Below are positions 3,770-51,682 of a stretch of 64,000 nt of DNA, in pieces (positions within the stretch are counted from its first letter, which is position 1; every line of letters starts with the position of its first letter). The notes below the pieces were generated by a model, which was not told the DNA's origin, ran no database searches, and was given only the letters and a program-made list of their open reading frames with translations. A program made the position numbers and the translations under genes. The stretch is from the NCBI GenBank assembly GCA_000165345.1, contig CM000435.1:1214459-1278458 (forward strand), in the 5' to 3' direction.

Positions 3770-3797
3770 TTTGGCGCCACAATGCGGCGCCAAATTG
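3770..3797. promoter_or_regulatory. Paired inverted E2F-like boxes TTTGGCGCCAC-N6-GGCGCCAAATT upstream of the prenyltransferase-alpha gene
   Basis: Two GGCGCC cores 17 nt apart, about 115 nt upstream of ATG 3909, in an AT-rich intergenic region. Confidence 0.6.
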
Positions 3798-3908
3798 CCG
3801 GTACTTGAAAAGATCAAAAAGAATTTTTGAAAAGAAGTCAAGTGGAAAAAAATTACAAATAAATAAATAACTAGAATTGTAAGCAAAATTTATACAAACC
3901 TAGATTAA

Positions 3909-5612
3909 ATGCATGGCAGAGTGAAGAGCGAGCAGAAGGAACTTACTGAGGAGGAAAAGCAGTACATAGCAAGAGCAAAGCGGCTTTTTGATGAATGCAT
4001 AGAGTTAATTAATCAAGATCAAAAAGAGTCAACCTTTTCAGTAAAAACTTTGGAATTAACTGAAAAGATTTTGAAGATTAATACAGAAGTAGCAACTATG
4101 TGGAATTTCAGGAAAAGCTACATTATTTCTGAGCAAAGCAATACACAACTTATTGATAATATATTAAACAATGAATTAATATTGACAGAAAGTCTGTTCA
4201 AAAATGACCCAAAATCTTACAATCTTTGGTCAAATAGAGCCTGGTTACTTGAGTTTATTGTGAATCTTAAGGATGCTGACAAAATTCTACTTAAGGTTGA
4301 AGAAGATTATTTGAAGAATATTTCAAATTTTGATAACTTAAATTATATACAACCATTTAAAGAGTCCTTAGCTAAGTACAGCAATATAAGATTAAAGTTA
4401 TTGATAAATGAATTAGAGCTTTGCAATAGGTTATTTGAAGTAGATGATCGCAATTTCCATTGTTGGAGACATCGATCATTTGTTCTTTGTTGTTTAAGAT
4501 ATATTTCTGTTATTATATCATGGAACACCTTTCTAGAAGAAATGCAACTACAAGAACTAGAATTCCTTAATAGAATGACAGAAACCAATTTTTCAAATTA
4601 TTCTGCTTGGCATCATAGGACTTTACTTGCGTTTGGACACCAATTTAACAGCATAAAAGACTTTAATAGAGAAGCAGAGTTTGTGCATACAGCAATTTAT
4701 ACTGAACCAAATGATCAGAGTATTTGGCAATACTATTTTTGGCTAATGGGTGACTTTCTTCCTAAGATACTCTTTAAAAATGAACAATTTAAAGTAACTC
4801 CATCATTTCATATCAAAGATTTACAGGTTGAATTTCCTGAAAACAAAGATGATCAAATAGTAATTCACATTAAATTTTCATTACCTTGTTTGATTAATAG
4901 TTCTACATCAAGCCTATCAATAGAATCTGATGATGGTTCCACAATCACTTTTGAAAAAGGTACCTGGGAACCAATTTATGAGGACTATGCAAGCATCTAT
5001 GGCTTTTTTAACTCCAAACTAAACTCTGATTTTGACAATAAACGTAAAAAACGAACTGCAACTTGGAGTTATTCTTTATCTCTAAAAGAAAATTCCCAAG
5101 ATGAAATTAGATCCATCACTAATTTACTAAGTAATTCCCCATCCATTTTTCTAATAATATCTGCTGCACATTCTGATACAACATATACAAACACTCCATC
5201 TTGGAACTTAAATGACCCAGAATATAAAAATGAAACGTTTTCATCACTCAGAATTAGTCCAAAATTAATTTTGGATGAATACAAATTCTACAGTTTTAAT
5301 ACACGTACAAATGACAATATAGTTACTTGTAAATATTATTTTCAGTCAGAATCTTCCAAATCTCAACTTAGAGAATGGATTGGAATTCTTCAAAGTGAAT
5401 TTGACCTTTTAAAGAGCATACAAGAATTAGAGCCTGAATGTAAATATCCTATAATAGCACTTAAGTATGTAAATGACATCTATCATCTATGCTCTCCGCC
5501 AGATATTGCGGAGAATGAAAAAATGAAAGTGGATCCAGAAATGATAAAACTGCTACCAACTATAGATCCTCTAAGAAAATTATACTATAGTGAAAAGTTC
5601 AATATTGCATAA
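3909..5612 (+). CDS. Protein prenyltransferase alpha subunit (PPTA repeat protein; likely Rab geranylgeranyltransferase alpha)
   Basis: 567-aa ORF from ATG 3909. It carries repeated PPTA-type motifs: MWNFRKSY, KSYNLWSNRAWLL, RNFHCWRHRSFVL, NYSAWHHRTLL, NDQSIWQYYFWL. A long C-terminal extension suggests the RabGGT alpha type. Confidence 0.7.
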   Translation: MHGRVKSEQKELTEEEKQYIARAKRLFDECIELINQDQKESTFSVKTLELTEKILKINTEVATMWNFRKSYIISEQSNTQLIDNILNNELILTESLFKNDPKSYNLWSNRAWLLEFIVNLKDADKILLKVEEDYLKNISNFDNLNYIQPFKESLAKYSNIRLKLLINELELCNRLFEVDDRNFHCWRHRSFVLCCLRYISVIISWNTFLEEMQLQELEFLNRMTETNFSNYSAWHHRTLLAFGHQFNSIKDFNREAEFVHTAIYTEPNDQSIWQYYFWLMGDFLPKILFKNEQFKVTPSFHIKDLQVEFPENKDDQIVIHIKFSLPCLINSSTSSLSIESDDGSTITFEKGTWEPIYEDYASIYGFFNSKLNSDFDNKRKKRTATWSYSLSLKENSQDEIRSITNLLSNSPSIFLIISAAHSDTTYTNTPSWNLNDPEYKNETFSSLRISPKLILDEYKFYSFNTRTNDNIVTCKYYFQSESSKSQLREWIGILQSEFDLLKSIQELEPECKYPIIALKYVNDIYHLCSPPDIAENEKMKVDPEMIKLLPTIDPLRKLYYSEKFNIA

Positions 5613-5703
5613 TATTCACAAAATTCCCAATACAAATTGAGGAAAATACCTGTAAGATGAGCTATATTCAAATTAGGGAGGAATCCATCATTCGAAAAAA
5701 CTC

Positions 5704-6297
5704 TTATAAGACAATTTCCTCCTGATCGTCTTCCATATCCATCATGCTAACATCTGTGTTACCACTAAATTTATCTATAAATGATTTTCTCTTTTCAACG
5801 ATCTTATTCATTTTCTTCTCGCTCTTTTTAAGAGCTTTCTGGCGAGAAATATCACTCATTGTTGTTGTTTGTGCTAAAGGAATTTCAGGTCCCTTTAGTA
5901 ATGTAGCATTTCTCTCAGTTTCCTTATCAACTAAAGTCCTCTGTGTCTGCTGCTGCTTCATTAATCTAGTCTTGTAGAATCTCTCCTTTCTTGATTCCTT
6001 AATCTTTTCCACCAATTTCATTGCCTTGATTGTCTTAATATATAGCTCTCTGTCATATCTTATTGGGCAATTCCTCTTCTTTTCAAATTCAAATGTAGTA
6101 TCCATAATCATTTCTTTTCCACGAGTCTTTCTATATGCCTTGGTCCATTTGGACTTTCTTGGGTTATGCTTCATCTTAAAATGTCTATGGCATTTACTTC
6201 TGCAAAACCTGAAAATTTTGGCATCATTTCTTACAAAAGTTACACCGTGACCTGGATATATATTACTTGAACAGTACCAACACTTCTCAATACGCAT
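5704..6297 (-). CDS. RLP24: Ribosome biogenesis protein RLP24 (ribosomal L24e-like)
   Basis: 197 aa. MRIEKCWYCSSNIYPGHGVTFVRNDAKIFRFCRSKCHRHFKMKHNPRKSKWTKAYRK is near-identical to eukaryotic Rlp24 ([51 protein letters not shown]). Confidence 0.9.
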   Translation of the reverse strand: MRIEKCWYCSSNIYPGHGVTFVRNDAKIFRFCRSKCHRHFKMKHNPRKSKWTKAYRKTRGKEMIMDTTFEFEKKRNCPIRYDRELYIKTIKAMKLVEKIKESRKERFYKTRLMKQQQTQRTLVDKETERNATLLKGPEIPLAQTTTMSDISRQKALKKSEKKMNKIVEKRKSFIDKFSGNTDVSMMDMEDDQEEIVL

Positions 6298-6610
6298 ATT
6301 TTCTGTGCTCTTCTATTATACAGTCAAATGCTACTCTTGGGACAACGCACTTCTTCTTTTATAAATGTATCAATCTTTTAGTTCAAAGTCTGACTTCAAG
6401 CTAACTTGTCTCTTAGAATGTTACTTTATATCAGACGTTTCAAATTCCTTAGATTACTTATAGCTCTACTCGAGATACTAGAACTACACCTGAATTGTTC
6501 CAAATACTTTTCCAGCCCTCTTTCTACTACTTTTATAGTTATCCCCTTGTAACTTATGTTTTTTTATTCCCTCCTTTTTATTTATCTATTATTATTAGTC
6601 AAAAAATACA

Positions 6611-6642
6611 TGGCGCCAAAATGGGTCCACATGTGGCGCCAT
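6611..6642. promoter_or_regulatory. Paired E2F-like boxes TGGCGCCAAAA ... TGGCGCCAT in the divergent RLP24 / Slt11-like promoter
   Basis: Two GGCGCC cores 23 nt apart between divergent genes (5704-6297 minus, 6759-7319 plus). Confidence 0.6.
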
Positions 6643-6758
6643 TAGCAACAATATAATAATAAAGAAAATCTGAAAATTGATTAAAGTAATTACAGAAAGA
6701 CCGGCAAGAGTTTGCCTTAATGCCCTTAAAGTAGGTTTAGAGAAGGGAGGTTTGAAGA

Positions 6759-7319
6759 ATGTCTCACGGTTTAAGTTATGAGGACTGCAATTTCCCCATT
6801 GTATGCGACAGATGCTTGGGTGAAAGCAAGTTTCTCAGAATGACAAAATCAAACCAAGAAAGATCTTGCAAGATTTGCAATCGACCATGCACAATGTTTC
6901 GCTGGAAGCTTCACAATTCCAAAAAATACAATCAAACCACAATATGTTATTCTTGTGGTAAAATCAAGAATGTATGCCAATCATGCGTAAGTGATTTAAA
7001 CTTTGGATTATCATTATATGCCAGAGATGACTATATAAAGAGTAAAAAAGAACAAGGAGATGAAACTGCTCTTCAAATTATGAATATTCCGGATAGCGTA
7101 GATAACAGGGATCATTTCATGGAGAATAAATTGAATGGAAATGATGAAACCTTTATTAAGAGAATTGATGAAAACCAGAAAAAGAGAAAGGAAATATTAA
7201 AAAAGATTTTGGCAAAGGATGACAAAATTGAAGCAAAAGAAGTGACCAATTATAGTAAGAATACCACAGAATGTGGCTCTAGTTCTAAAACTACAATCAA
7301 AAGTATTTCGAAAAATTGA
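6759..7319 (+). CDS. Slt11/RBM22-type N-terminal zinc-finger domain protein (no CCCH/RRM part encoded)
   Basis: 186 aa. NFPIVCDRCLGESKFLRMTKSNQERSCKICNRPCTMFRWK...TICYSCGKIKNVCQSCVSDLNFGL aligns with RBM22/Slt11 [39 protein letters not shown]...[24 protein letters not shown]. The ORF stops at 7319 and no downstream ORF continues it. Confidence 0.7.
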   Translation: MSHGLSYEDCNFPIVCDRCLGESKFLRMTKSNQERSCKICNRPCTMFRWKLHNSKKYNQTTICYSCGKIKNVCQSCVSDLNFGLSLYARDDYIKSKKEQGDETALQIMNIPDSVDNRDHFMENKLNGNDETFIKRIDENQKKRKEILKKILAKDDKIEAKEVTNYSKNTTECGSSSKTTIKSISKN

Positions 7320-7469
7320 ATACTTAATACTTTAATAAGTATATTTGTAGCCATAATGCCACTATATATAAATGCATACATTTCATTATACAAATATATT
7401 TTTCATAAAAGCCTTCTAATAGTTAAAAATCTGTTGCTAATTTTTTTTTTTTATCAATTCGATGTCAAG

Positions 7470-9464
7470 TCATTCATTTACCTCATCACTTTGTATCATT
7501 TCTGAAACTACATGATCACTGGAAGATGATTGCTCGGAAGGCTCTGCTGCCTGACCTGAAGTAGTTTTGTCTAAAATATTAATGGTATTTGAGCTTTTTT
7601 GGCCGGCTTGAAGGAACAATTTATCATCCTGCTCACCTTGCGTTGGTGTGATCAACCTTTCGCTGTTGTCTTTTTGAAGTTCATTGAGCATTCCAACTTC
7701 ACGACTCTGAGAATCTACTTCATTCAAATCATTGATAATCTCTGATTCAACTTCAGCTCCAACTATTTGGTCATTATCATCGTTTTCTATATCTCTAATT
7801 TCCTTTTCTGCTTCTTGCTCCAACTTTTGTTCCTCTTTAATCATCTCCTCATTCCTTCTATTAATGCTATCAGAGAGCTTCTCAAATTCTTCTTTAGACG
7901 GTAGTTCAAGGCCTTCTTTTAAGCCCTGATCTTCACTATTCTCTGGATTTGCCTCAATTAAATTCACAATCTTTTCTCCACCAGCCTTATTATTTGCTTC
8001 CAATTTGTTCAGAATGCTCATTCCTCTGAACGATGGCTGATCATACATACTTTCTGCCAACTCCTCCTCCTCCTGTTCTTCCTTATTCTTGGAGATTTGT
8101 TTATTTTGAATCTTGGCCTTTTTTTTCTTAATCGCATTTCTTCTCTTCTTTCTCTTATTTTTCTGAACATCTTTTTGAATTTCTTCTACAACCTCACTCG
8201 ATTGTTCAAAATTATCTTCTTTATCATCGCCAACTTCATTATTATTTCTAATTTCTTCCCCAAGCTCTTTTGCTATTAAATCAACTTTTCCCTCTCCAAA
8301 TGAAACTGAGCTTAGCTCTTTTGAAATATCCTCGCCTTGAGCTTCTGTTGAATCGGTATCTGTATCTGTGCTTGCCTCTGTACTTGAACCTTCCGAAAAG
8401 TCAGATATTCTATTCTCAATTTCCTTTTTATCATCTGGATGAACTAAAGCAAGAACTTCCTCTGATAACTCCTTCAAATTGATATTTACCATGTGAGCAA
8501 TAGTCTTTGGTGAAACTACTCCAGAAATTGTCTTGTCCCCAATTAGCCAAGTTGGATAAGATGTGATTTTTTCTTCAACACAACTTGTCCAAGAATTTCT
8601 ATTCTGATCAAAGTTGCAGTCAAAATATGAATTATTGTCTTTAAGTACTTGAATAGCTGCTTTTCCCCACTCCAGTTCAGTTGCAATTGCTGCAGGTGAA
8701 GTACTTATTGTGTAATATTTTCCTCCAGATTCTACATACCTTTCAATAATCCTTCTATTGATTATTTCCTCTCCTTTAGTTAGTTTTCTAATATTCATAA
8801 CTTCTGAAGTTAGGTCTTTTACTTTTCCAGTAATTTGATAGTTTCTTGAATACATCATAAATATAAACACAATAGAACTTGCAACAACTATTCCAAATAA
8901 CCTGAAACTTTCTGTATAAGTACTAAGAACTCCAGGTATCCATGTTAAAATAAGAGCTAAACCAATTACAGAAGACTTGAGTAAAAATGTCACTGATCTA
9001 GTATTATATTCAAATAAGCCAATAAACAAGAAGTAGCAACTCATAATTGCAATAAAGTTAGTCATCATGAAAACTATTCTATTCCATATTCCAATGCTAT
9101 CTATCCAATTCAAAATAGAAGAAGTATAACCCTCAGCATTTTCGTATAGATTTGAGTAGGTATAATTTGAATTATAGCTTCTGTACTCTTTAAATCTTTC
9201 CCCATCTTCAAACTCTATTTCATTTTGAGCTTTCATGTACGAAAATGAAGTTGCAATTAACAATGAAATCTCAGCCAATAAAGAGTATACTGATAATGGT
9301 ATTCCACAAATCCACCAAGCCTTGCTTTCCAATAGTTGGTGGTCATATATTGACCAGTTTTTATCCATATTATTTAGATAATACAAATCTAATATACTCA
9401 AAATTATGCAAACTGACCAGCAAGCCAATAGCACTGGCATTGTAAAAGCACTAAAAACGCTCAT
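7470..9464 (-). CDS. Multi-pass membrane protein with a VKOR-like TM segment and a thioredoxin-like (YPTW) domain; acidic low-complexity C-terminus
   Basis: 664 aa from ATG 9464, with 5-6 predicted TM helices in the first ~210 aa. A VKOR-like FG(I/V)P helix motif appears as AWWICGIPLSVYSLL. A DsbA/Trx-like segment follows: YYTISTSPAAIATELEWGKAAIQVLKDNNSYFDCNFDQ...WTSCVEEKITSYPTWLIGDKTISG (YPTW is the hallmark of VKOR-fused Trx domains). The expected CxxC is CNFD here. The C-terminal half is Glu/Lys/Asp-rich. Confidence 0.45.
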   Translation of the reverse strand: MSVFSAFTMPVLLACWSVCIILSILDLYYLNNMDKNWSIYDHQLLESKAWWICGIPLSVYSLLAEISLLIATSFSYMKAQNEIEFEDGERFKEYRSYNSNYTYSNLYENAEGYTSSILNWIDSIGIWNRIVFMMTNFIAIMSCYFLFIGLFEYNTRSVTFLLKSSVIGLALILTWIPGVLSTYTESFRLFGIVVASSIVFIFMMYSRNYQITGKVKDLTSEVMNIRKLTKGEEIINRRIIERYVESGGKYYTISTSPAAIATELEWGKAAIQVLKDNNSYFDCNFDQNRNSWTSCVEEKITSYPTWLIGDKTISGVVSPKTIAHMVNINLKELSEEVLALVHPDDKKEIENRISDFSEGSSTEASTDTDTDSTEAQGEDISKELSSVSFGEGKVDLIAKELGEEIRNNNEVGDDKEDNFEQSSEVVEEIQKDVQKNKRKKRRNAIKKKKAKIQNKQISKNKEEQEEEELAESMYDQPSFRGMSILNKLEANNKAGGEKIVNLIEANPENSEDQGLKEGLELPSKEEFEKLSDSINRRNEEMIKEEQKLEQEAEKEIRDIENDDNDQIVGAEVESEIINDLNEVDSQSREVGMLNELQKDNSERLITPTQGEQDDKLFLQAGQKSSNTINILDKTTSGQAAEPSEQSSSSDHVVSEMIQSDEVNE

Positions 9465-9900
9465 CTTAAAATTTAAAACTATCCATATAAAATTTGAATT
9501 ACTATATTAATTTTCTATTATTTGATTTTGGGTGCAAAATTTATATTGATTACCGAGCACACTAAATTTTCAATACACTATTCGGGAAAAGCTAACAAGC
9601 CTAAATTCACACTTTAACAAATCATTAGATTTTAATCTCAATAGTAACATTATAGAGAAAATTTGTTCAATGTAGTACTATTTGGTTTATTAATCAATAA
9701 TTGGTTTTGTAGAATTTAGTGTAATGTTAACAATTTTAGATTAATTTTAGAATAAAAAATGAAATGGAGACTATTAGACAAATAAATAAACCAGAAAGAT
9801 TTAAACTCTAATATAAAGAGGGCTTCAACGAATTCTACTTCCTAATTTATAATTATTTTTTTTCAAAACTTAATTTGGACTTGAATATTAAAAATGCACC

Positions 9901-9912
9901 TTTTTGGCGGCA
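9901..9912. promoter_or_regulatory. E2F-like half box TTTTTGGCGGCA
   Basis: Lies between the 7470-9464 and 9989-11635 minus-strand genes, in the upstream region of the membrane-protein gene. Confidence 0.4.
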
Positions 9913-9988
9913 TATGTGGGCAGAAAAGCATGTATATCTTGATTTTTTTTTAATATGGAAATAAGTGTAAAAATAATTAAAGAATACC

Positions 9989-11635: not shown

Positions 11636-12083
11636 TTTTTTTTAAAAGCTCTTTTATATTAATATTATTTAAAATATTTTCATTTAACTAGAGATCTTAA
11701 TTCGCTTAGTTCATATAGCATGGTACTTTACGTTACGTATCTACGTGTTATACCAATATTGTTCATAACTAACAGTTACCTGCAAAATAATCTTAATTAA
11801 AAGAAATTTAAATTGAAAATATTTAAGAAAAACAAATATTATATCTAAAATCACTTTTAAAAAGATAATAGTAAGTCGATATTCACTTTTATCGCAACCT
11901 AATACAAACATTAAACTCCACTTCAAAATGATAAGTTCTAAAAATGTAGGCTATATATATTAATGCTTTAAATTTCAAAAATCCTATGTAATATAGTTGA
12001 AAATCTGAATAGATTTGGATAAGATCTTTTATCAAAACTTGAATCAATTTTTCAAATGCTTATTTTTGAACTGACTACAATAG

Positions 12084-12126
12084 TGCATGCAAGGCAGCGC
12101 CAAATCACACGAACGCTGTTGGCGCC
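12084..12126. promoter_or_regulatory. TGCATGCA box plus paired E2F-like boxes (GCGCCAAAT ... TTGGCGCC)
   Basis: TGCATGCA at 12084-12091, GCGCCAAAT at 12097-12105 and TTGGCGCC at 12119-12126. Intergenic between the 11635 minus-strand gene and the small plus-strand ORF at 12319. Confidence 0.55.
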
Positions 12127-12318
12127 TATTTGAAACAAATTTGTGTGGTTTTTGATATAAATGTAAGATGAAAAAGAAAATGTATTTTTTTTCATTTTTT
12201 TTCGCAAGTTAAGGTAGGATTATCTTTTGTAATATTTTTAAATTACTTAGGTTGATAGAATGTTTCTCTTTTTTGTAACTTGACTAACTATTAGAGCATA
12301 AACTCTTTTAAAGTAGAA

Positions 12319-12543
12319 ATGTACAGAAATGAAATATTAAGTAATTTCTCCTCTAGATTGAGAATTATGTATCGCTACTACGAGAATAGATGGAATGAGC
12401 TTATATACAAACAAAATGATGATTTGGTAATGATTCTAAAAGAATATAACTTGAAAATAAAACGTGTAGCAAACAACCAAGGAAAAGGGATAGTTAAAAA
12501 AATAATGTTTTGTGAGCCTGATATAAAAAGGAATATAATTTAA
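12319..12543 (+). CDS. Possible small protein (74 aa), unassigned
   Basis: Clean ATG ORF about 190 nt downstream of a paired E2F box (12097-12126) in an otherwise empty 650-nt intergenic gap. No homology recognised. Confidence 0.25.
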   Translation: MYRNEILSNFSSRLRIMYRYYENRWNELIYKQNDDLVMILKEYNLKIKRVANNQGKGIVKKIMFCEPDIKRNII

Positions 12544-12689
12544 ATAAACTTGATTCTACAGAAAGAGCGTTTTCTATCATCAAGTACAATTTTCTAAAGT
12601 TGGGAAAAGCAATACATAATTTAAAATAACTTGGGTGTTGGAAATAAATAGTATTCAAGAATTGAATAAAAATAATCCAAAACCTTTAT

Positions 12690-12986
12690 TTAAGAATCTG
12701 AAATCTTTTGCCTCTTATATACTTGTTGGTCTTTCTCAAAGTTTTGAGTCAAATCTTCATATCCCTCTCCTACCATTCCAATACAATCGCCACGTAAAAC
12801 AAGAGACTCCATACTTACAGTTTCTACTTTGTTCAGATCTTTATTATATATCTTTTCAAAGCAATTTTGTAATACTATATTTGTTAGCTGATCGAACCCT
12901 ACCAAATTCCCAACATATACTTTGTTATCAACTGTCAATACGCTCACAGTCTTGTTGATAAACTGTTCTAATGTAGAACTATTCAT
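12690..12986 (-). CDS. LSM8: Sm-like protein LSm8 (U6 snRNA-associated)
   Basis: 98 aa. LEQFINKTVSVLTVDNKVYVGNLVGFDQLTNIVL...VETVSMESLVLRGDCIGMVGE matches human LSm8 LENYINRTVAVITSDGRMIVGTLKGFDQTINLIL...VEQVVLGLYIVRGDNVAVIGE. Confidence 0.8.
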   Translation of the reverse strand: MNSSTLEQFINKTVSVLTVDNKVYVGNLVGFDQLTNIVLQNCFEKIYNKDLNKVETVSMESLVLRGDCIGMVGEGYEDLTQNFEKDQQVYKRQKISDS

Positions 12987-13314: not shown

Positions 13315-13325
13315 TTTTGGCGGGC
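13315..13325. promoter_or_regulatory. E2F-like box TTTTGGCGGGC
   Basis: Intergenic between divergent LSm8 (minus, ATG 12986) and the 13613 plus-strand gene. Confidence 0.5.
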
Positions 13326-16881: not shown

Positions 16882-16905
16882 AGCGCCAACTAATGGCGCC
16901 GTTTG
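16882..16905. promoter_or_regulatory. Paired E2F-like boxes AGCGCCAAC-N3-TGGCGCCGTTT in the divergent 2H-phosphoesterase / CtIP promoter
   Basis: Two GGCGCC-type cores about 70 nt from ATG 16809 (minus) and about 260 nt from ATG 17165 (plus). GCATGC also occurs at 17096-17101. Confidence 0.6.
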
Positions 16906-19247: not shown

Positions 19248-19408
19248 AGAAAATGGAATAACACGATACCCTTCGCATGCCCATGATATAATATCTGGAG
19301 TAACTTCTCCTGTATTTGAATTAGTTTCTGATTCGTACTTAAGTCTAAGTTTCATTCCTGCTGGACATGCTAAAGAAGGTCCTACTTCTCTTTTTTCCTG
19401 GCAAATTC
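19248..19408 (-). CDS. COWP-like Cys-motif protein, exon 2 of 3
   Basis: Intron 1 is 19409-19493 (85 nt, GTAATT...AAAATAG) and intron 2 is 19191-19247 (57 nt, GTAAGT...TTTTATAG). Phases are consistent (1 then 0). The exon encodes ICQEKREVGPSLACPAGMKLRL...WACEGYRVIPFS. Confidence 0.5.
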
Positions 19409-20061: not shown

Positions 20062-20070
20062 CCCGCCAAA
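20062..20070. promoter_or_regulatory. E2F-like box CCCGCCAAA (reverse complement TTTGGCGGG)
   Basis: Intergenic between the COWP-like gene (minus, ATG 19953) and the WDR44-like gene (plus, ATG 20303). Confidence 0.5.
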
Positions 20071-25004: not shown

Positions 25005-25015
25005 TTTGGCGGGAA
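25005..25015. promoter_or_regulatory. Canonical E2F box TTTGGCGGGAA in the divergent RMI1-like / hypothetical promoter
   Basis: About 150 nt from ATG 24858 (minus) and about 50 nt from ATG 25063 (plus). Confidence 0.6.
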
Positions 25016-25062
25016 TTGCAATTCCAAAATAATCAACAAAAAAATAAAAGAAAGTTAAGATC

Positions 25063-26808: not shown

Positions 26809-27143
26809 TATATTTGAGCTAAATCTAGACAACTATTGATTCATGTGACACAAATGTGAATAGTTATTATTCTCAACAGGGATTAATCTTTCTAGCTCCC
26901 CTATTTCTTAAATTACTATTCTATTTAGGCTACACACTAAATATATTATTTCATATTTAAAATCAAACAAGCCAAACTGAATTGAAAAGTCATTTAGTTT
27001 CGTAGTCAAAGTAATTTTTTTAATTAAATAGACAAATCTTTAGGGTGATAGCTTAGAGAAACTTGTGACATAACTCCCCTTATATCTTGCTTTGGACTTG
27101 TTTAATTTTACTTGGAGGCGGAGATAGGCTCATTCTTCAGAAA

Positions 27144-27158
27144 AATGGCGCGCGCTTG
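27144..27158. promoter_or_regulatory. E2F-like GC box AAATGGCGCGCGCTT upstream of the 3229-aa giant ORF
   Basis: The only GC-rich island in the 600-nt AT-rich gap, about 265 nt upstream of ATG 27422. Confidence 0.45.
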
Positions 27159-38430: not shown

Positions 38431-38442
38431 TGCATGCATGCA
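38431..38442. promoter_or_regulatory. TGCATGCATGCA box (ApiAP2-type motif)
   Basis: Overlapping TGCATGCA copies about 120 nt upstream of the type-I membrane protein gene start (38315, minus). Confidence 0.35.
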
Positions 38443-41608: not shown

Positions 41609-41684
41609 CTTTTTTGACAAACGACTTTAGTCCACAGCCTATTACTCCTGTAAACAAAAGCTATGCATTTCCACTAAGTGCACA

Positions 41685-41701
41685 TTGGCGCGTGCGCCAA
41701 C
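41685..41701. promoter_or_regulatory. Palindromic double E2F-like box TTGGCGCGTGCGCCAAC in the divergent VPS16 / hypothetical promoter
   Basis: Near-perfect inverted repeat (TTGGCGC / GCGCCAA) about 80 nt from ATG 41608 (minus) and about 135 nt from ATG 41835 (plus). Confidence 0.6.
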
Positions 41702-41834
41702 TATCGGGTGTTACTGAAATATTTATACCGTAATTTCCGACTCACTCAGTTAGAAAGATAATTCGACTATGGCTTATTTTGCTCAAAAGCTATCGAACTT
41801 TTAGCTTTAGCTAAAGTTTTATGTTAAAATATAG

Positions 41835-43067: not shown

Positions 43068-43206
43068 GTTTATAAACTGTATTTACGGCAAACTGTTAAA
43101 TATTATAATTAGCAATGCATATATATATAGATTAGTTATCAAATTTAGTTTATATTTTTGTAAATAAATCTGCAAATATAATTTTATTTCAGTAATACTA
43201 TATAAC

Positions 43207-46200: not shown

Positions 46201-49200
46201 ATCGAAAATAGATATTACTTTCTTGACAAAATACGAATCTTGAAAACTCTGTGCGCAAAGCAGTAATTCAGGGAGCTCTCTATTACAAAACAGACTTTTG
46301 TTTAAAATAAGCAGCTTCAAACATTCTAAAGTGTACCTTGGATCTTCTTCAAACCATCTTTTTAGAGGCATCTTACTCAATAATTTGGTTACTAGAAGCA
46401 TAGTAGTAGGAGATTGAACTGTATTAATGGGGTCAATTAGCTTCGGTACTTGCAATATAATAAAGCTCCATTGAATATTAATTGGTAAAATATCAAATAA
46501 TAATTCACATAAAGCCCCATTACAAGAGTCCAAACAAAGGGAAATTGTATCAAAAATTCCAAAGCTTATCTTCGGTCTGATTGTTCCGACTATAAAATTG
46601 CCATCTTTATCTCTGAAATAGTTGTTAAAATATGATAAGATTATAACAATAAATGAAGAATATTTGGAAAGAGTTTCTGAAAGTGACTCACTATTTACGT
46701 GCTGGAAAGAATGTAGTATTGAATGAATAACTTTAAGTACTGCAAGCATTTTAATATCAATATTCCTTGATTGAGAATTAATTAAATCAGAATATCTCTC
46801 AATTTCAGAAAGATACTCAGGGTTATTCTGGCCCAACAACATTATTAATTTTGAAAGTACAGAGTCGATACTGTCCTTAATTTTTGATATTCCGCTTTCA
46901 AGACGAACAACTTGACTGGTCATTCTTGTCCAGGGAAATGAAAGCGAAAATACCGAATACAAAAATTCCTCAAGAGGTACGCCACTTGTTTTGATGGATC
47001 TTTTTCTAAAAAGTCTATCTAAATCCCATAAAACCTTTGAAATTTCTTGTGATGCATTTGTTTGAGAAACAAGAGGCTTGAACAAATTGACTTTCTTTAC
47101 GTCGTCAAATTTGAGAGGTGAGGTATGCTCACTATTTTCATGTAGTTCTACTTCATAGATTTCCTTATATTCTTTTGTTTCTCTTGTTGAAGTTGGGAGA
47201 ATTAACGTGTTTCGGACCAAGGGAGATGTTTTAAGGTATGTGGTGGTCTTATCTAAAAATAAATCATCTGGAGATTCAATACTTGGAGTATCTGAGATTA
47301 CTCCTGTTTTTAAAATTATTATCAGAATGGTTGTAAGGAGTGAAAATGAACCAGATCTACATTCTTCAGAGGAACTGAATATCCAAATACTTAGGTGGTG
47401 AATGAGCGTAATTGAGTAAGATGCAGCTAGATATTCTAGTAAATTCTTTCTATATGATCTCGAGATAAAAATTGCATTTAGAGCAATTGAAAGATGGTAG
47501 AACAGAGAATTTTCTTCAATTGAAATGAGCTCTGTAATATCAAAAGCTGACTCATCTCTTGAAGAATTGTCCAAATTCTGCTTTTTAGTACAGAAACTTT
47601 TACAGCTCAGATTCATCAAAATCTTCACAAGCTCATCTACATATATACAAAATAATTTACATGAAATTTTTGAGGAAGTTAGAGATTTAGTCAAGGACTT
47701 TAGTGCAGAAATCTTTATTTGTGTTTGAATCCTTGGGTTTTTTATTGCTGATAAAAGTTTGGAGAGTCGAAAAGAGTCTGGAGTTTTTAATACTGACGAA
47801 TTTGGCCCTTCTGTGCTCATCATTACTGATTTCTTGTGGTGAATATCTAATTCTTCCATTTTTTCTACCAACAGAGCCTCTCCATATATGTTTTGTTCAT
47901 AAGCAGTACTCATTTCATCTTTTTCGAGGTCAACCAAGGTAAAATAGTCGAAAAAAATATGCTTTGTATTCAAGCTCCACTGTCTTTCTATAAATTCAAG
48001 ATCATTTACAACTTCTAAATTTAAATCGTCTTTAGAGAATTTTACTCTTTTATTCAAGAGATCGACTAGCTGCAAAACAGAGGTTCTTCTTAAACTTCTA
48101 TTTTTAAGTATTAAAGTAAGCATAGTGGACACCATATAAAGTTCTGCAAGATTTTCTAAATCTAGATTATCCTTATTCCCACTCAGAATTAAAGAGCAAT
48201 ATAATATGCACCTTCTAATTCCTCGCAGTCTAGACTGGCAAAATTTGATATTTGACGAAGAAATCATTAATTCCGAAACTTTGGTCCATTTTGATAGGAA
48301 TAATTTTAAGCTCGAAATAATTTTGGATGAATTTGGGAGTACTTTTTTATTTTGAAAAAGTACAAAATCGAGAGTTATAACTTTGGAAATCCAAGTTAAA
48401 GGAGAATAAAAGTGAAGGCATTCATCAGACACTCTTTCAATTAAGACGTCAAAAAGAGACGCTAGATTTTTGGACCCATAGCTTTCTTGGCATAAAAGAT
48501 CGAATAAGTATCCTAATGTAATTGGTATTAAATTTTCAAATGGTGAATTCTTTAAACTAAATAAATAATCCAATAGAATACTTAAATGTTTTGATAGATT
48601 TTCTTTAGAAGCATCAGATCTTAATATATAAATTATGGATGCAACTACATGGATTGGGCTTTTAATGAATCTTTCAGTAAGCTTTTCTATATAAGAAAAT
48701 TTATATTCCATTTGGCCTTCTAAAGAGTAATTTGAATTATTTGGGTATAAAAGCGAAACAAAATCGTAGACAAATAATGTTTGGCTAATCATTGAAACCG
48801 AGTCTAGGCTCGCCAAATCATTGCCTTGGAACAATGACTCTAAGACATCCAATATAGTAAATCTGATAGAATCGCTATGCACTATTCTAAAAGAATCGAA
48901 TTCAATTATTTTTTCATTTCCAAGCAAAAAAACAATGCATGACATCAAGCTATTTGTTTCAAAGCGCTCCATGTGTTTACTCCGTTTAGTTTCAGACTCG
49001 TGTACCTTTTCTAAAGCTGATCCATGACTATTGTTGCTATTATTTGCAGAATTAAATTCTGCACTAAAGTTGTAAATATCTTCAATATTTTCTAAACTGT
49101 CCAAATCGTTAAGATCTGCAATTTTATCTGAAGATTCAACTTCTTCATTGTATTCTGCAAAAGATTCAATTTGCAAATCAAACCTTTGATTGAAAAGAAA

Positions 49201-50178
49201 ATCAAGTTTGGTATTACACATTTTGATATCTTCAAAGTAAACAATCTTGAATATTGTGGAAACATACTTGATGAATTGAGAGAAAATGTCCCCTGCAGCA
49301 AGAAGAGAAAAATATTTATGGCCTTCATTATCCGAAAGAAAGTTAAACCTGGTAAAGGTTGAACAAATGAGTTGCGCAGAATCCAAAAATTTTAGGTTAC
49401 ATACTGAAAAATCCACTACTTGTGGCTCAATTTTAGTCTTCTTTGATTGAAGCTTTTTTTTAATTTCAATTGCATTAGAGTTTAGGTCGTTACAACTCAT
49501 TAATAGCCTGAACAAAGTAGACCAAAGCCTGCTTTCCTTCATTAAAAGTTCAGAATATGTTGAAATTGATTCTTGAACGACAAAAGATAAAGATACAAGA
49601 GGCTCTAATTTACATTCACAATGAGAAGAAATGGATGATTTTAAGGAGCAACAAACGAGGTTTGGAATAACTGTTTCTGCAAGATTTAAGATCCAAAATT
49701 CTATTTCAGATACATCGGTTGAATATACTTTGTTTTTAGTTAATAATTCATTAATGCTTTGTATCATTTCCGTTAATAATTCAAGGATTTTCTCCTTAAG
49801 AACAACACAACAACTAGATCCCATATATCCATCAGTGCTCGAATTTTCATACAAACCAGGAAATAATGCCTTGTAAGTTTTGTCAGAAACTGAGGGACAG
49901 CAGCATGAGCTCAAAGAATTAATCAACAAGTCCCACAACTCCAAATTTAGTGTAAGCAAAGCTGAGGGGAAATCTCCTAATACATCCTGCCTAATTGCAG
50001 CAATAAGCTGCAATAATTCTTTACATTTTCTTATCTTTATTTGAATATCACCATCTTGAATCTTTGAAGTAATTTCCTTCACAGCTTCATTAATATGACT
50101 CAATAGTTCTGCCTCCTGTTTATTCACGCCAACTTTTTCAAGGAGCTCCAGGTTTTCACTCTCCAACCTGAAACTCAT
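43207..50178 (-). CDS. Giant hypothetical protein (2323 aa), probably HEAT/ARM-like helical repeat
   Basis: A single uninterrupted 7-kb frame from ATG 50178. Leu-rich, helical and Cys-rich in places. No enzymatic motifs recognised. Confidence 0.65.
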   Translation of the reverse strand: MSFRLESENLELLEKVGVNKQEAELLSHINEAVKEITSKIQDGDIQIKIRKCKELLQLIAAIRQDVLGDFPSALLTLNLELWDLLINSLSSCCCPSVSDKTYKALFPGLYENSSTDGYMGSSCCVVLKEKILELLTEMIQSINELLTKNKVYSTDVSEIEFWILNLAETVIPNLVCCSLKSSISSHCECKLEPLVSLSFVVQESISTYSELLMKESRLWSTLFRLLMSCNDLNSNAIEIKKKLQSKKTKIEPQVVDFSVCNLKFLDSAQLICSTFTRFNFLSDNEGHKYFSLLAAGDIFSQFIKYVSTIFKIVYFEDIKMCNTKLDFLFNQRFDLQIESFAEYNEEVESSDKIADLNDLDSLENIEDIYNFSAEFNSANNSNNSHGSALEKVHESETKRSKHMERFETNSLMSCIVFLLGNEKIIEFDSFRIVHSDSIRFTILDVLESLFQGNDLASLDSVSMISQTLFVYDFVSLLYPNNSNYSLEGQMEYKFSYIEKLTERFIKSPIHVVASIIYILRSDASKENLSKHLSILLDYLFSLKNSPFENLIPITLGYLFDLLCQESYGSKNLASLFDVLIERVSDECLHFYSPLTWISKVITLDFVLFQNKKVLPNSSKIISSLKLFLSKWTKVSELMISSSNIKFCQSRLRGIRRCILYCSLILSGNKDNLDLENLAELYMVSTMLTLILKNRSLRRTSVLQLVDLLNKRVKFSKDDLNLEVVNDLEFIERQWSLNTKHIFFDYFTLVDLEKDEMSTAYEQNIYGEALLVEKMEELDIHHKKSVMMSTEGPNSSVLKTPDSFRLSKLLSAIKNPRIQTQIKISALKSLTKSLTSSKISCKLFCIYVDELVKILMNLSCKSFCTKKQNLDNSSRDESAFDITELISIEENSLFYHLSIALNAIFISRSYRKNLLEYLAASYSITLIHHLSIWIFSSSEECRSGSFSLLTTILIIILKTGVISDTPSIESPDDLFLDKTTTYLKTSPLVRNTLILPTSTRETKEYKEIYEVELHENSEHTSPLKFDDVKKVNLFKPLVSQTNASQEISKVLWDLDRLFRKRSIKTSGVPLEEFLYSVFSLSFPWTRMTSQVVRLESGISKIKDSIDSVLSKLIMLLGQNNPEYLSEIERYSDLINSQSRNIDIKMLAVLKVIHSILHSFQHVNSESLSETLSKYSSFIVIILSYFNNYFRDKDGNFIVGTIRPKISFGIFDTISLCLDSCNGALCELLFDILPINIQWSFIILQVPKLIDPINTVQSPTTMLLVTKLLSKMPLKRWFEEDPRYTLECLKLLILNKSLFCNRELPELLLCAQSFQDSYFVKKVISIFDKISVFENPNHPINALIQKSLLKWLLGVGLVSSSFEVQTKIWDLKLVLLDKWDYEHSNNTYSIISNFRIPNVDNIEINQQISWGFIFSRSIKSLNHLINNMSYLVPINENLIKSYIGWRNVEFFEYLASILRFLEVFLTIQHRPIEIESNENFDQNNGEIQLVITTLTESMEVIAEEIITPFLNLITMQDSNIEKERLLFTNLMFGFLCKLSRFLPFSSLVFQKIADNLSLFSSSLSGISHLELSINSFLLQIQLVLCIVKADPSCFGVLREHIIILISKISPKEMTSDQMNKLLSFLLFLFDKGLKNHEICSRLLEKISSLCNQVLLSMSKILPKSKDGHNLTLELPQSLNFNNTYNLLMGVSLLSLKLSQIVSIDDSSNSLSEELKKEIFNSVIVGIEISSKISISSEFLTLYCSLDQIDMLQESLALLLSALSILNSSSLSIEMEEEFIGKLFNHIFTIWENFIYLTSFFSKSQMSHSEELYNELRAQQSEKKEFYNEIKLCIDYYIQIITMDIFTELLTNNLNKFDPGKFTDDLKNIWLFINNSEESLSKLNYPIIYFASFIYKIKVKSSGTSDLGDWNRIFNKNFYLNGLLDNVLLRTSEILVEIREICLGELRSCTIASLRAMAKQTNKNLNKFNENAFLSQMCCLFQFIKVIGLFLAEFEGPHNLLTNNKLKPLLNFTLESLALLSCISKQLEAELERSNRSGFETCIRTWWKYTCKITGESQDIEHFSYMITQIISLLLCCSSQIIPISETQMTNITQGANPVPLSDLARSQNQGSARFHDLFINLLDTESSVGLRLNRGALRFPIEINEENGFLMSNVTKKELNKLDGFDLKINPKKGRMLLDSIILNDSVPIPIKCGVLKLFLSLALSSSKKKFIKQWKVDEFPDKIKILSILEKAKISRSSEFLVLSLALLEVLLSFNPSQLVSSVEHVRKPLRTYSDSQCSSIMISLELLKVEAETFEDLDLSSRTYPIIQDLFNKCFALLKVMQN

Positions 50179-50275
50179 CTGTGGCAGTGAAGCTTATACA
50201 TAAATTTATTCCACCGAATATTTCTATCTTTTTTTTCTCACTTTTAAGTTAATTACACATTCATGTTATGAGGAA

Positions 50276-50283
50276 GACCCGCC
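50276..50283. promoter_or_regulatory. E2F-like half box GACCCGCC upstream of the 2323-aa giant gene
   Basis: About 100 nt upstream of ATG 50178 (minus strand). Confidence 0.3.
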
Positions 50284-50416
50284 TTTTTTTACAGGTAACT
50301 TATAGTCGACTAGACGGCCAGAAAGTGCTTATAATTGCTTAAGAATTTAACTAAAAGAAAACATGTAACGCAAACCGGATAAATTATAATAAAACAAAGA
50401 TACATAATTACTCTTG

Positions 50417-51405
50417 CTAGATACTTTTCTTTTGCTGTTCTCTAGAAGGTCTTTTCGACTCGCAGTGAGTTACAAGCCTTTTAAACATTTGAATATATTT
50501 TCTTGTAGTTTCATCATTCAAGACATGAGCAATATGAGAGGAAAAAATTTTTGTTCTTCCAGCTCTTTCGTGTATACCTACCATAGTTACGCCCATTGGC
50601 CATGGCGCATTTCCAATTGCCAATTCAATATATTTATCTTGAGCTTTATTGTAATCTCTTTGGTTACACAAAGTCACAATTTCAAATAATTTATCGAGAA
50701 CCTCTTTATCAACTTTTCCATCAGATGCCTCTAGCGAATTAACTAAAGGTTGAATGTCTCTTTTTGTTTGATAGTATTGAGCGGAATCCTGCATACCTTT
50801 TTCTGTTTCAGAGTCCGCTTTCTTTCGACATTTAAGTAGTTTCTCCCATTCTTTTAGCTGAGTATCTATCCATCTAAGAATAAACTTCTGATTGCTTTCT
50901 CCTTCTATATGCTCAAATTCCTCATATATCTCGACCTGTGTGTGGTCATCGCTTACAGAATAGAGAGAGAAATTAGGATCAAAGCCATGCAAAAAGATAT
51001 TCTGTTGGCCAATATTCATTTCTTCATTTGTTCTTCCCTTAAACTCTAATCTCCTTAGTCTATTATATCTTTCGTTATCATCCTCTCCAAATAAGGTTAT
51101 TGGTTCTCCAAGTAGTCTTAGCCTCTTTATAGTCTCCTCATTTTGTATAGGCAGGGAAGAGGTTAAGCATTCCGAACCATTTTCCAATTTATTTGAGATA
51201 ATTTTGCAATCACTATTAGATAAATCAATAACAGAACTACTATTTTCATGGTTACTTTTCTTTATTCTGTCTTCCGAAGTTATACAATGTGAATTCTTAA
51301 TATTCTCCTTCTTTACTTTTTTCAAATCCCTTTCTCTCTGCCTTCTGATATATTCTTGCCTCTCATGCTCTTGCACTTCACTTTGAGAAACCCAACTTCG
51401 GTTAT
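50417..51405 (-). CDS. PRP18: Pre-mRNA splicing factor PRP18, exon 2 of 2
   Basis: ETIKRLRLLGEPITLFGEDDNERYNRLRRLE (human [31 protein letters not shown]). [62 protein letters not shown] (human [59 protein letters not shown]). The exon starts at an AG acceptor in phase 1. Confidence 0.85.
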
Positions 51406-51474
51406 CTAAATGTAAACGAAAAAAAAGAGGTTATTAATCAGTAATTATAACGTCTGCATTATTATTAAACTTAC

Positions 51475-51532
51475 CTAGCTTCTTTTTAAGTTCTATTTTT
51501 TTAGAGTTAATAAGCTCCTCAAGAGATTCCAT
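51475..51532 (-). CDS. PRP18: PRP18 exon 1 (MESLEELINSKKIELKKKL-)
   Basis: ATG at 51532. Donor CTAG|GTAAGTTT. The 69-nt intron 51406-51474 ends TTTACATTTAG. The phase-1 join gives ...KKKLDNRSWVSQSEVQEHERQ, which parallels the human PRP18 N-terminus MDILKSEILRKRQLVEDRN. Confidence 0.7.
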
Positions 51533-51667
51533 CCAATTTAATTAGTCAGAAAATATCAAAAAAGATTACAAGAGTCATATAGAAAACTTTAAATTGTCCG
51601 CTTTTCCCAAAAAAGTACAACACTTAAATACAATTATGCAATCTTAAAACTTAATCAAACACATTAA

Positions 51668-51682
51668 CCGCGCGCGCCAATC
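51668..51682. promoter_or_regulatory. E2F-like GC box CCGCGCGCGCCAATC in the divergent PRP18 / secreted glycoprotein promoter
   Basis: About 135 nt from PRP18 ATG 51532 (minus) and about 130 nt from ATG 51814 (plus). Confidence 0.5.

What the first reader, a model, noticed from the sequence alone, without database searches (positions are those of the whole stretch)
3770..51682. Recurrent paired or palindromic GGCGCC (E2F-type) boxes mark nearly every divergent promoter in the window
Against about 75% AT intergenic DNA, GC-rich E2F-like boxes stand out. Most are pairs of inverted half-sites: 3770-3797, 6611-6642, 12097-12126, 16882-16905 and 41685-41701. Single boxes occur at 2371, 9903, 13315, 20062, 25005, 27146, 50276 and 51668. 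They lie 50-400 nt from start codons and often between divergently transcribed genes. Downstream genes include FACT, Rlp24, the Slt11-like gene, LSm8, CtIP, RMI1-like, Vps16 and Prp18. The E2F/DP motif is an established over-represented upstream element in Cryptosporidium. The consistent two-site inverted architecture with 12-25 nt spacing is a structural detail worth testing, for example as a dimer-of-dimers E2F/DP binding mode or a bidirectional promoter element.
Basis: partly seen in the sequence, partly recalled or inferred. Interest (0 to 1): 0.5.

Follow-up and report, generated by a model that had tools for sequence, protein, structure and literature searches.

The report
Conserved E2F-type promoter boxes, often paired
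The GC-rich GGCGCC/GGCGGG boxes are real, evolutionarily conserved promoter elements of the already well-known Cryptosporidium E2F-type motif; about half occur as two closely spaced boxes, but I found no strict orientation or spacing rule.

Summary
All five pairs and eight single boxes sit at the stated coordinates. GGCGCC occurs 6 times against 0.68 expected. Relaxed boxes lie in all 8 divergent intergenic regions, 5 of 9 tandem ones and 0 of 8 convergent ones. The window is the right end of C. parvum chromosome 7.

In syntenic loci from six other Cryptosporidium species the boxes are phylogenetic footprints: 76% of box columns are invariant against 18% of other intergenic columns. Four spaced pairs persist as pairs from C. 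parvum to C. felis, and one persists in all seven species.

The motif is already known. Published work describes it as the most abundant upstream motif in C. parvum and the main motif in open-chromatin peaks.

The proposed "inverted, 12-25 nt" grammar is only partly supported:
- The core is its own palindrome, and flank orientation varies between pairs.
- Spacer length is no better conserved than random intergenic segments (25 becomes 20-21; 23 becomes 36-39).
- Pairs occur in tandem promoters as well as divergent ones.
- The fifth "pair" is one overlapping GC block.

A weak preference for 13-14 bp spacing remains untested genome-wide. Verdict: a known element with a modest new detail.

The parts
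3770..3797 (.). Pair 1: two full E2F-type boxes (GGCGCC at 3773 and 3786, 13 bp apart) in the divergent Hint<->PPTA intergenic region
   Evidence: Both boxes are present in all 7 species at 13-14 bp, with unrelated spacer sequence.
6611..6642 (.). Pair 2: TGGCGCCA twice, 23 bp apart, in the divergent Rlp24(L24e)<->STL11 intergenic region
   Evidence: The 23-bp spacing is kept in parvum, meleagridis, ubiquitum, canis and felis; it is 36 and 39 bp in xiaoi and ryanae.
12096..12126 (.). Pair 3: AGCGCCAAA ... TTGGCGCC, 25 bp apart, in the 1054-nt tandem region between LSm and the 548-aa gene, 460-485 nt upstream of that gene's ATG
   Evidence: Spacing is 25 bp in three species, 21 in canis and 20 in felis; xiaoi and ryanae have a single box.
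16882..16900 (.). Pair 4: AGCGCC and GGCGCC, 13 bp apart, in the divergent AKAP7/LigT-like<->SAE2/CtIP intergenic region
   Evidence: Spacing is 13-14 bp in five species, with GGCGCC/GGCGGG/CCCGCC exchanged at the same position; absent in xiaoi and ryanae.
41685..41700 (.). Overlapping composite GC block TTGGCGCGTGCGCCAA (cores 6 bp apart) in the divergent Vps16<->402-aa intergenic region
   Evidence: The orthologues have (G/C)GCGCGCGCGG(G/T), an uninterrupted GC block. This is the same class as the boxes at 27146 and 51668.
2371..2379 (-). Single box GGCGGGAAC (= TTCCCGCC on the minus strand), 373 nt upstream of the FACT ATG and about 20 nt past the Hint stop codon
   Evidence: TTCCCGCC is conserved in five species.
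9903..9911 (+). Single box TTTGGCGGC in the tandem region upstream of the thioredoxin/PDI-like gene
   Evidence: CCGCCAAAA is conserved. C. ubiquitum has gained a second box 13 bp away.
13315..13324 (+). Single box TTTTGGCGGG in the divergent LSm<->657-aa intergenic region
   Evidence: CCCGCCAAAATGCAC is conserved in five species and CCGCCAAAA in xiaoi and ryanae.
20062..20070 (-). Single box CCCGCCAAA in the divergent 202-aa<->WD40 intergenic region
25005..25016 (.). Single box TTTGGCGGGAAT in the divergent RMI1-like<->581-aa intergenic region, 49 nt from the right-hand ATG
27146..27157 (.). GC block TGGCGCGCGCTT upstream of the 3229-aa gene, with a weak GGCGGA box 30 bp upstream at 27117
50278..50283 (.). 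CCCGCC followed by T7 (non-canonical flank) upstream of the 2323-aa gene. Its E2F identity is less certain.
   Evidence: CCCGCCT(A/T)TTT(T)TACAGGTAAC is conserved in four species.
51668..51680 (.). GC block CCGCGCGCGCCAA in the centre of the divergent Prp18<->1483-aa intergenic region (about 140 nt from each ATG once the annotated Prp18 5' exon is used)
   Evidence: Conserved in four species.

Best explanation
These are E2F/DP-type cis-regulatory boxes, the general promoter element of Cryptosporidium genes. Each box is a complete binding site for one E2F/DP winged-helix heterodimer: a core GGCGCC, GGCGGG or GCGCGC, usually flanked by TT on one side or AA on the other. The boxes lie in the promoter-bearing intergenic regions of this gene-dense stretch of C. 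parvum chromosome 7, where they probably nucleate the accessible promoter region. In a divergent region this serves both genes.

About half of the box-bearing promoters carry two boxes within 30 bp, or an overlapping GC block. I read these as homotypic two-site modules that selection keeps as modules, most simply because two sites raise occupancy or strength. The spacing is loose, except perhaps for a closest-packing class at 13-14 bp.

Shown here: presence, enrichment, promoter-restricted location, cross-species conservation of the boxes and of the two-box state, and interchange of GGCGCC with GGCGGG at the same position. Inferred: that E2F/DP is the binding factor, and that pairing acts through occupancy or cooperativity.
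For: - Enrichment and location.
- Phylogenetic footprint: 55/72 box columns are invariant across five species against 671/3728 other intergenic columns (Fisher p = 2.7e-26).
- Pairs 1-4 are kept as pairs from C. parvum to C. felis, and pair 1 in all seven species, while the spacer sequence differs.
- Single boxes stay single at orthologous promoters.
- Boxes change GGCGCC<->GGCGGG/GCCGCC in place, keeping the E2F core GGCG.
- Close clustering of boxes within a region is beyond uniform placement (p = 5e-5) and beyond placement in a 150-nt zone (p = 0.011).
- Replication in six unseen C. parvum intergenic regions left of the window: five carry boxes, including a GGCGCC-N8-GGCGCC pair at 14 bp and an inverted CCCGCC-TA-GGCGGG.
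- Literature: E2F is the most abundant upstream motif, found in 163/200 expression clusters, and E2F and DP genes are present (PMC3734150). It is the dominant motif in ATAC-seq peaks (bioRxiv 10.1101/2025.01.17.633476). None of the C. parvum AP2 domains tested on protein-binding arrays bound this motif (PMC4117751).
Against: - No direct binding data exist for Cryptosporidium E2F/DP. A 2025 review says most regulatory components lack functional validation (PMC12246861).
- If boxes are assumed to be confined to a 100-nt promoter core, the clustering is not significant (p = 0.075).
- Some GC boxes have non-E2F flanks and may belong to another factor: 2154 GGTACCGCCTTTGCCCC, and 50278 CCCGCC followed by T7.
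- Several tandem-region boxes lie 370-485 nt from the downstream ATG and close to the upstream gene's stop codon, so their promoter role is assumed rather than shown.
- The sample is one 64-kb window plus 10 kb, not the genome.
Confidence: 0.8

Rival explanations
1. Dimer-of-dimers: two E2F/DP heterodimers bind the two boxes cooperatively as one stereospecific complex, so spacing and orientation are functionally fixed.
For: - 13-14 bp recurs in independent promoters: 3773 and 16882 in the window, L010 16512, and a second box gained only in C. ubiquitum. That is 4 of 9 independent close pairs.
- Pair 1 keeps 13-14 bp in all seven species although its spacer sequence is replaced.
- Pair 2 keeps exactly 23 bp in five species.
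- From my own knowledge, not checked here: cooperative binding to two inverted E2F sites is classical for the adenovirus E2-early promoter.
Against: - Spacer length is no better conserved than random intergenic segments. The baseline for identical length in five species is 58% for 7 nt, 34% for 17 nt and 30% for 19 nt; only one of four pairs is exact.
- Pair 3 shrinks from 25 to 21 and 20 bp, pair 2 widens to 36 and 39 bp, and pairs 3 and 4 lose boxes in xiaoi and ryanae.
- Flank orientation is inconsistent, and direct in C. xiaoi.
- The excess at 13-14 bp is a post-hoc observation (roughly p = 0.03-0.05). It is also the closest packing possible for two 12-bp sites.
Confidence: 0.15
2. One box per direction: in a divergent region each box drives one of the two genes, so pairing is the signature of a bidirectional promoter.
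For: Four of the five pairs in the window lie in divergent regions, and all eight divergent regions carry a box. More than half of ATAC-seq regulatory peaks are annotated as bidirectional (bioRxiv 10.1101/2025.01.17.633476).
Against: - Four of eight divergent regions have one box only: 13319, 20062, 25008 and 51673.
- Pairs occur in tandem (unidirectional) regions: 12096-12126, 27117/27147, and L010 16512 and 20533.
- Boxes 13 bp apart cannot plausibly define two separate promoters.
Confidence: 0.08
3. The boxes are bound by a factor other than E2F/DP, for example an ApiAP2, zinc-finger or Myb protein that recognises GGCGCC. The E2F resemblance would then be coincidental.
For: No binding experiment exists for Cryptosporidium E2F/DP (PMC12246861). 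Some boxes have atypical flanks (2154, 50278). AP2-type motifs are closely associated with the boxes: GTGCA/TGCAC lies 9-13 nt away at four sites, and CACACA is nearby.
Against: - The core plus TT/AA flanks match TTTSSCGC, and GGCGCC and GGCGGG interchange in evolution as expected for E2F sites.
- Cryptosporidium is reported to be the only apicomplexan that keeps E2F/DP, and the only one with this motif dominant (PMC3734150).
- Protein-binding arrays of C. parvum AP2 domains gave TGCAT, CACACA and G-box motifs, not this one (PMC4117751).
Confidence: 0.1
4. The paired boxes act through secondary structure, as a DNA cruciform or an RNA stem-loop formed between the two self-complementary boxes.
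For: In C. parvum the arms are 7-13 nt and 77-100% complementary. Pair 1 has 13-nt arms at 92%, and pair 2 has 9-nt arms at 100%.
Against: No compensatory change is seen in any pair or species. One-sided changes reduce core complementarity to 4/6 while each box keeps the GGCG core, for example GGCGCC to GGCGGG in felis pairs 2 and 4 and canis pair 4. The xiaoi pair 1 is a direct repeat. The complementarity is an automatic result of a palindromic core.
Confidence: 0.02

Closest known systems
Cryptosporidium parvum 'E2F' upstream motif family (Oberstaller et al. 2013, motifs 3 [C/G]GCGC[G/C] and 4 GGCGGG; octamer TGGCGCCA, attributed there to Bankier et al. 2003)
   Same: Same sequence, same organism and same location upstream of genes. 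The frequency also agrees: 13 of 17 promoter-bearing regions here, against 2,379 of 3,281 genes in motif-positive clusters in the paper (PMC3734150). It is also the main motif in ATAC-seq peaks, many of them bidirectional (bioRxiv 10.1101/2025.01.17.633476).
   Different: The papers I could read do not describe two-box modules, their spacing or their conservation across species. The preprint stresses a single E2F motif per peak, and the 2013 paper only says that orientation, spacing and number need to be considered.
Double E2F sites of classical E2F-regulated promoters: the two inverted sites of adenovirus E2-early bound cooperatively with E4-ORF6/7, and the overlapping inverted sites of DHFR and E2F1
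   Same: Two complete E2F sites tens of base pairs apart or overlapping, often reading as an inverted repeat. The overlapping GC blocks at 41685, 51668 and 27146 resemble the DHFR-type TTTCGCGCCAAA.
   Different: No bridging factor is known in Cryptosporidium, and no pRB homologue is reported (PMC3734150). Orientation and spacing are not fixed here. These are housekeeping and general promoters, not cell-cycle genes only.
Plant E2F sites TTTCCCGCC / TTTGGCGGG (Ramirez-Parra et al. 2003, as cited in PMC3734150)
   Same: The single boxes at 2371, 13315, 20062 and 25005 are exactly these variants.
   Different: A different kingdom. Function in Cryptosporidium is inferred only.

Membership tests
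E2F/DP binding site (TTTSSCGC; Cryptosporidium E2F motif family) | Core [C/G]GCGC[G/C] or GGCGGG | tested here: met
   12 non-coding SGCGCS and 5 non-coding GGCGGG/CCCGCC cores.
E2F/DP binding site (TTTSSCGC; Cryptosporidium E2F motif family) | T-rich 5' flank and/or A-rich 3' flank next to the core | tested here: met
   By my reading, about 15 of the 21 non-coding boxes show TTGGCG / CGCCAA / TTCCCGCC flanks (sequences). The exceptions are 2154, 27117, 50278, 62913 and, weakly, 6635 and 16895.
E2F/DP binding site (TTTSSCGC; Cryptosporidium E2F motif family) | Enriched upstream of genes, in promoter regions | tested here: met
   21/32 boxes lie in the 18.4% non-coding fraction (p = 5e-9). They occur in 8/8 divergent, 5/9 tandem and 0/8 convergent regions.
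E2F/DP binding site (TTTSSCGC; Cryptosporidium E2F motif family) | The organism encodes E2F and DP proteins | not tested
   Literature only: 2-3 E2F and 2 DP genes (PMC3734150, PMC4117751, bioRxiv 10.1101/2025.01.17.633476). I could not retrieve them with the capped searches.
E2F/DP binding site (TTTSSCGC; Cryptosporidium E2F motif family) | Physical occupancy by E2F/DP at these sites | not testable with these tools
   None of the Cryptosporidium papers I read reports E2F/DP binding data. A 2025 review says most regulatory components lack validation (PMC12246861).
Stereospecific cooperative double E2F site (adenovirus E2-early type) | Fixed inverted orientation of the two sites | tested here: not met
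   The core is self-palindromic. T/A flanks face outward (pairs 1 and 5), inward (pair 3) or are mixed (pairs 2 and 4). The C. xiaoi pair 1 is a direct repeat.
Stereospecific cooperative double E2F site (adenovirus E2-early type) | Spacing under constraint | tested here: inconclusive
   The 13-14 bp class is stable in up to seven species. However, spacer length overall is no better conserved than random intergenic segments, and the wide pairs vary (25 to 20-21; 23 to 36-39).
Stereospecific cooperative double E2F site (adenovirus E2-early type) | Cooperative binding or a bridging factor | not testable with these tools
   Needs EMSA or footprinting with recombinant proteins.
Bidirectional-promoter-specific element | Pairing restricted to, or enriched in, divergent intergenic regions | tested here: not met
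   4/8 divergent regions have one box only. Pairs are also found in tandem regions (window 12096-12126 and 27117/27147; L010 16512 and 20533).
Structured element (hairpin or cruciform) | Compensatory substitutions that keep the pairing between arms | tested here: not met
   Only one-sided changes are seen. Core complementarity falls to 4/6 while the E2F core is kept.

The most novel reading that the evidence does not exclude
Cryptosporidium promoters may use a preferred two-site E2F module in which two complete boxes are packed 13-14 bp apart, with a looser class at about 20-25 bp. Two E2F/DP heterodimers would bind it cooperatively. The module would be maintained, and occasionally created anew as in C. 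ubiquitum, across the genus. This would be a promoter grammar specific to the one apicomplexan lineage that relies on E2F rather than ApiAP2 for general transcription.
Probability: 0.15. Interest if true: 0.45.

Novelty: already known. Interest (0 to 1): 0.27.

Why it matters
Cryptosporidium is the only apicomplexan reported to have kept E2F/DP, and this motif is thought to drive most of its promoters. Yet no binding or reporter experiment has tested it.

This locus offers clean, conserved test cases: compact bidirectional promoters such as Rlp24<->STL11 and Hint<->PPTA, each with two boxes that have survived from C. parvum to C. felis or beyond. They are ready-made substrates for EMSA and for CRISPR promoter mutagenesis.

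The cross-species comparison also shows that the GGCGCC and GGCGGG variants replace one another at the same position, which argues that they are one functional element. Beyond that, the finding restates published knowledge. The paired arrangement is a modest refinement, not a new mechanism.

Tried and rejected
1. Spacer-length constraint. I compared the four spacers with all same-length segments in the five-species intergenic alignments. There was no excess conservation, so I dropped the claim of strict spacing.
2. Helical phasing. The values 13, 13, 14, 23 and 25 cluster at about 0.2-0.4 of a turn. The orthologous spacings 20, 21, 36 and 39 break the pattern, and n is too small. Not pursued.
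3. GGCGCC boxes paired versus GGCGGG boxes single. In the window, 5/5 paired regions against 2/8 single regions have a GCGC core. Orthologues swap the two types at the same position, and a single perfect palindrome, TTTGGCGCCAAAG, sits upstream of eIF2alpha in all species. I rejected this as a real dichotomy.
4. Hairpin or cruciform. Rejected because there are no compensatory changes.
5. A third, degenerate copy inside pair 2 (TGGGTCCA, 6622-6629). It is not conserved in orthologues.
6. Extending the C. parvum sample. The leftward walk gave six new intergenic regions. The rightward walk reached only subtelomeric rDNA. A further leftward walk failed because my last homologue search, on a partial gene in L010, returned nothing; an intron may be the reason.
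7. Literature. Bankier 2003 is not held in the library. Two malformed searches failed. A search for the adenovirus double-site literature found no directly usable text, so that comparison rests on my own knowledge.
The remaining candidates were further orthologues, with little added value.

Full report
**Where the window is.** A protein in the window is 100% identical to C. parvum CPHLJ_7g5470. A neighbouring gene maps to chromosome record CP029786.1, which ends about 5 kb beyond the window. The last 158 bases of the window are the 5' end of an SSU rRNA gene. The window is therefore the gene-dense right end of C. parvum chromosome 7. ATG-initiated ORFs give 26 genes with almost no introns.

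**The observation.** GGCGCC occurs 6 times against 0.68 expected, and TTGGCGC 9 times against 0.90; no shuffle out of 100 reaches either count. GGCGCCA and GCGCCAA are the most strongly non-coding-enriched 7-mers in the window, with 9 non-coding and 0 coding occurrences.

I then used a relaxed definition, GGCG[CG]N or its complement. By that definition 21 of 32 boxes lie in the 18.4% of the sequence that is non-coding (p = 5e-9). Every one of the 8 divergent intergenic regions has at least one box. Five of 9 tandem regions have one, and none of the 8 convergent regions does. Allowing for the short length of convergent regions, about 4.65 boxes would be expected there, so P(0) is about 0.01. 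Two of the four box-less tandem promoters carry the GCATGC ApiAP2 motif instead. Thirteen of 17 promoter-bearing regions have a box, which matches the published frequency of the motif (PMC3734150).

**Anatomy of the pairs.** Core-to-core distances are 13 bp (3773/3786), 23 bp (6612/6635), 25 bp (12096/12121), 13 bp (16882/16895) and 6 bp (41687/41693). The last is not a spaced pair. In C. ubiquitum, C. canis and C. felis it is one uninterrupted GC block, (G/C)GCGCGCGCGG(G/T), of the same class as the 'single' sites at 27146 and 51668.

Each box is a complete E2F-type site, not a half-site. Because GGCGCC is its own reverse complement, any two copies read as both direct and inverted repeats. 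The T/A flanks that give an E2F site its polarity face outward in pairs 1 and 5, inward in pair 3 and are mixed in pairs 2 and 4.

**Are pairs more than chance?** I held the number of boxes per region fixed. Six of the seven neighbouring-box distances are 30 bp or less. The probability of that is 5e-5 if boxes fall uniformly in the region, 0.011 if they are confined to a 150-nt zone and 0.075 if confined to a 100-nt zone. Short-range clustering is therefore real. From this window alone, however, it cannot be separated from both boxes simply lying in the same small promoter core.

**Related sequences.** The Cryptosporidium-specific thioredoxin/PDI-like protein and the 402-aa protein led to syntenic loci in other species. 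These were C. meleagridis, ubiquitum, canis, felis, xiaoi and ryanae for window 1-19.5 kb, and ubiquitum, canis and felis for 32-53 kb.

In five-species alignments of seven intergenic regions, 55 of 72 box columns are invariant against 671 of 3728 other columns (Fisher p = 2.7e-26). The boxes are among the longest invariant runs in those alignments.

How each pair behaves across species:
- Pair 1 is present in all seven species at 13-14 bp, with unrelated spacer sequences.
- Pair 2 keeps 23 bp in five species and widens to 36 and 39 bp in xiaoi and ryanae.
- Pair 3 is 25 bp in three species, 21 in canis and 20 in felis, and a single box in xiaoi and ryanae.
- Pair 4 is 13-14 bp in five species and absent in xiaoi and ryanae.

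Single boxes remain single, with one exception: C. ubiquitum has gained a second CCCGCC box exactly 13 bp from the ancestral one. At several positions GGCGCC is replaced by GGCGGG or GCCGCC in one species. The two published motif variants are thus interchangeable at a single site.

**Tests of the proposed grammar.**
- Spacing. Random intergenic segments of 7, 17 and 19 nt keep identical length in all five species 58%, 34% and 30% of the time. Only one of the four spacers does. There is no evidence for extra constraint on spacing.
- Bidirectionality. Four of eight divergent regions have one box only, and pairs also occur in tandem regions. In 10 kb of previously unseen C. parvum sequence left of the window, five of six tandem regions carry boxes. 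These include a GGCGCC-N8-GGCGCC pair at 14 bp, an inverted CCCGCC-TA-GGCGGG, and a single perfect palindrome TTTGGCGCCAAAG upstream of eIF2alpha.
- Secondary structure. All changes are one-sided and keep the GGCG core rather than the complementarity between arms.
- What remains. The 13-14 bp distance recurs in four independent cases out of nine close pairs. This is post hoc. It is also the closest packing possible for two 12-bp sites.

**What is known.** The motif TGGCGCCA / [C/G]GCGC[G/C] / GGCGGG is published as the most over-represented upstream motif in C. parvum. It was attributed to E2F/DP, which Cryptosporidium alone among apicomplexans is reported to retain (PMC3734150, PMC4117751, PMC12246861). 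It is also the dominant motif in sporozoite ATAC-seq peaks, more than half of which are annotated as bidirectional promoters (bioRxiv 10.1101/2025.01.17.633476). Protein-binding arrays of C. parvum AP2 domains did not recover this motif (PMC4117751).

None of the Cryptosporidium papers I read reports direct E2F/DP binding data. None of the papers I could search describes paired boxes, their spacing or their conservation. Double E2F sites are classical in adenoviral and mammalian promoters; that statement rests on my own knowledge and was not verified here.

**Verdict.** The E2F-type identity and the promoter role are well supported, but they are already known. The two-box state is real and evolutionarily maintained, which is a modest new detail. 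A fixed inverted architecture, a strict 12-25 nt spacing rule and a specific link to divergent transcription are not supported. Cooperative binding at the 13-14 bp class remains possible, at about 15%. Testing it needs a genome-wide distance histogram and binding assays.

Noticed in passing
window 63843-64000 (+); chromosome end about 5 kb beyond the window: The window ends in the first 168 model positions of a eukaryotic SSU rRNA gene (125 bits). The chromosome record stops about 5 kb further on, so this is a subtelomeric rDNA unit at the right end of C. parvum chromosome 7. No genes are called between window coordinate 61596 and the chromosome end.
   Followed up: partly
window 62494-62785: Tandem repeat array (periods 15, 49 and 110 nt; the 110-nt unit is 97% matched over 2.5 copies) made of T-rich units ending in GGATTG or GCACTTG. 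It lies about 1.1 kb upstream of the SSU rRNA start. It may be rDNA spacer promoter or enhancer repeats.
   Followed up: no
window 9895, 12083, 13310, 41678: GTGCA/TGCAC lies 9-13 nt to the left (lower-coordinate side) of an E2F-type box at four promoters: 5 hits against 0.66 expected, p about 6e-4. It is invariant in orthologues (CCGCCAAAATGCAC; AGTGCACATTGGCGCG). This may be a composite of an E2F box with a TGCA-type ApiAP2 site.
   Followed up: partly
window 3755-3761 and 12106-12110: CACACA-type motif (an ApiAP2 binding motif in PMC4117751) next to pair 1 and inside the pair 3 spacer. TGTGTG beside pair 1 is kept in all five species, and GTGTG in the pair 3 spacer in four of five. AACCACAC flanking pair 3 is invariant.
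   Followed up: no
window 2146-2162 (-) and 50278-50300: Two conserved GC-containing elements whose flanks do not fit E2F. GGTACCGCCTTTGCCCC upstream of FACT is found in near-identical form (TACCGCC...GCCCC) in all seven species. CCCGCCT(A/T)TTT(T)TACAGGTAAC upstream of the 2323-aa gene is conserved in four species. They may be sites for a different factor.
   Followed up: no
window 11720-11739 (-): A 20-nt block, TACGTAACGTAAAGTACCAT, invariant across five species. It lies 85-105 nt upstream of the 548-aa ORF's ATG, inside an unusually long (1054-nt) intergenic region. It could be an unannotated 5' exon or intron signal, or a small RNA.
   Followed up: no
window 19275 and 38431-38442: Two of the four tandem promoters that lack any E2F-type box carry the ApiAP2 motif instead: GCATGC at 19275 and TGCATGCATGCA at 38431-38442.
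   Followed up: no
window 50417-51532 (-): The Prp18 gene is longer than its ORF. The annotated C. parvum gene (348 aa, PRP4 + Prp18 domains) spans 50417-51532 with an intron, whereas the ATG-initiated ORF ends at 51019. This shortens the Prp18<->1483-aa intergenic region to 281 nt and puts the box at 51668 in its centre.
   Followed up: partly
L002 9533-9552 (C. ubiquitum; orthologous to window about 9900): Lineage-specific gain of a second CCCGCCAA box exactly 13 bp from the ancestral one, in direct orientation. The promoter has a single box in the other species.
   Followed up: partly
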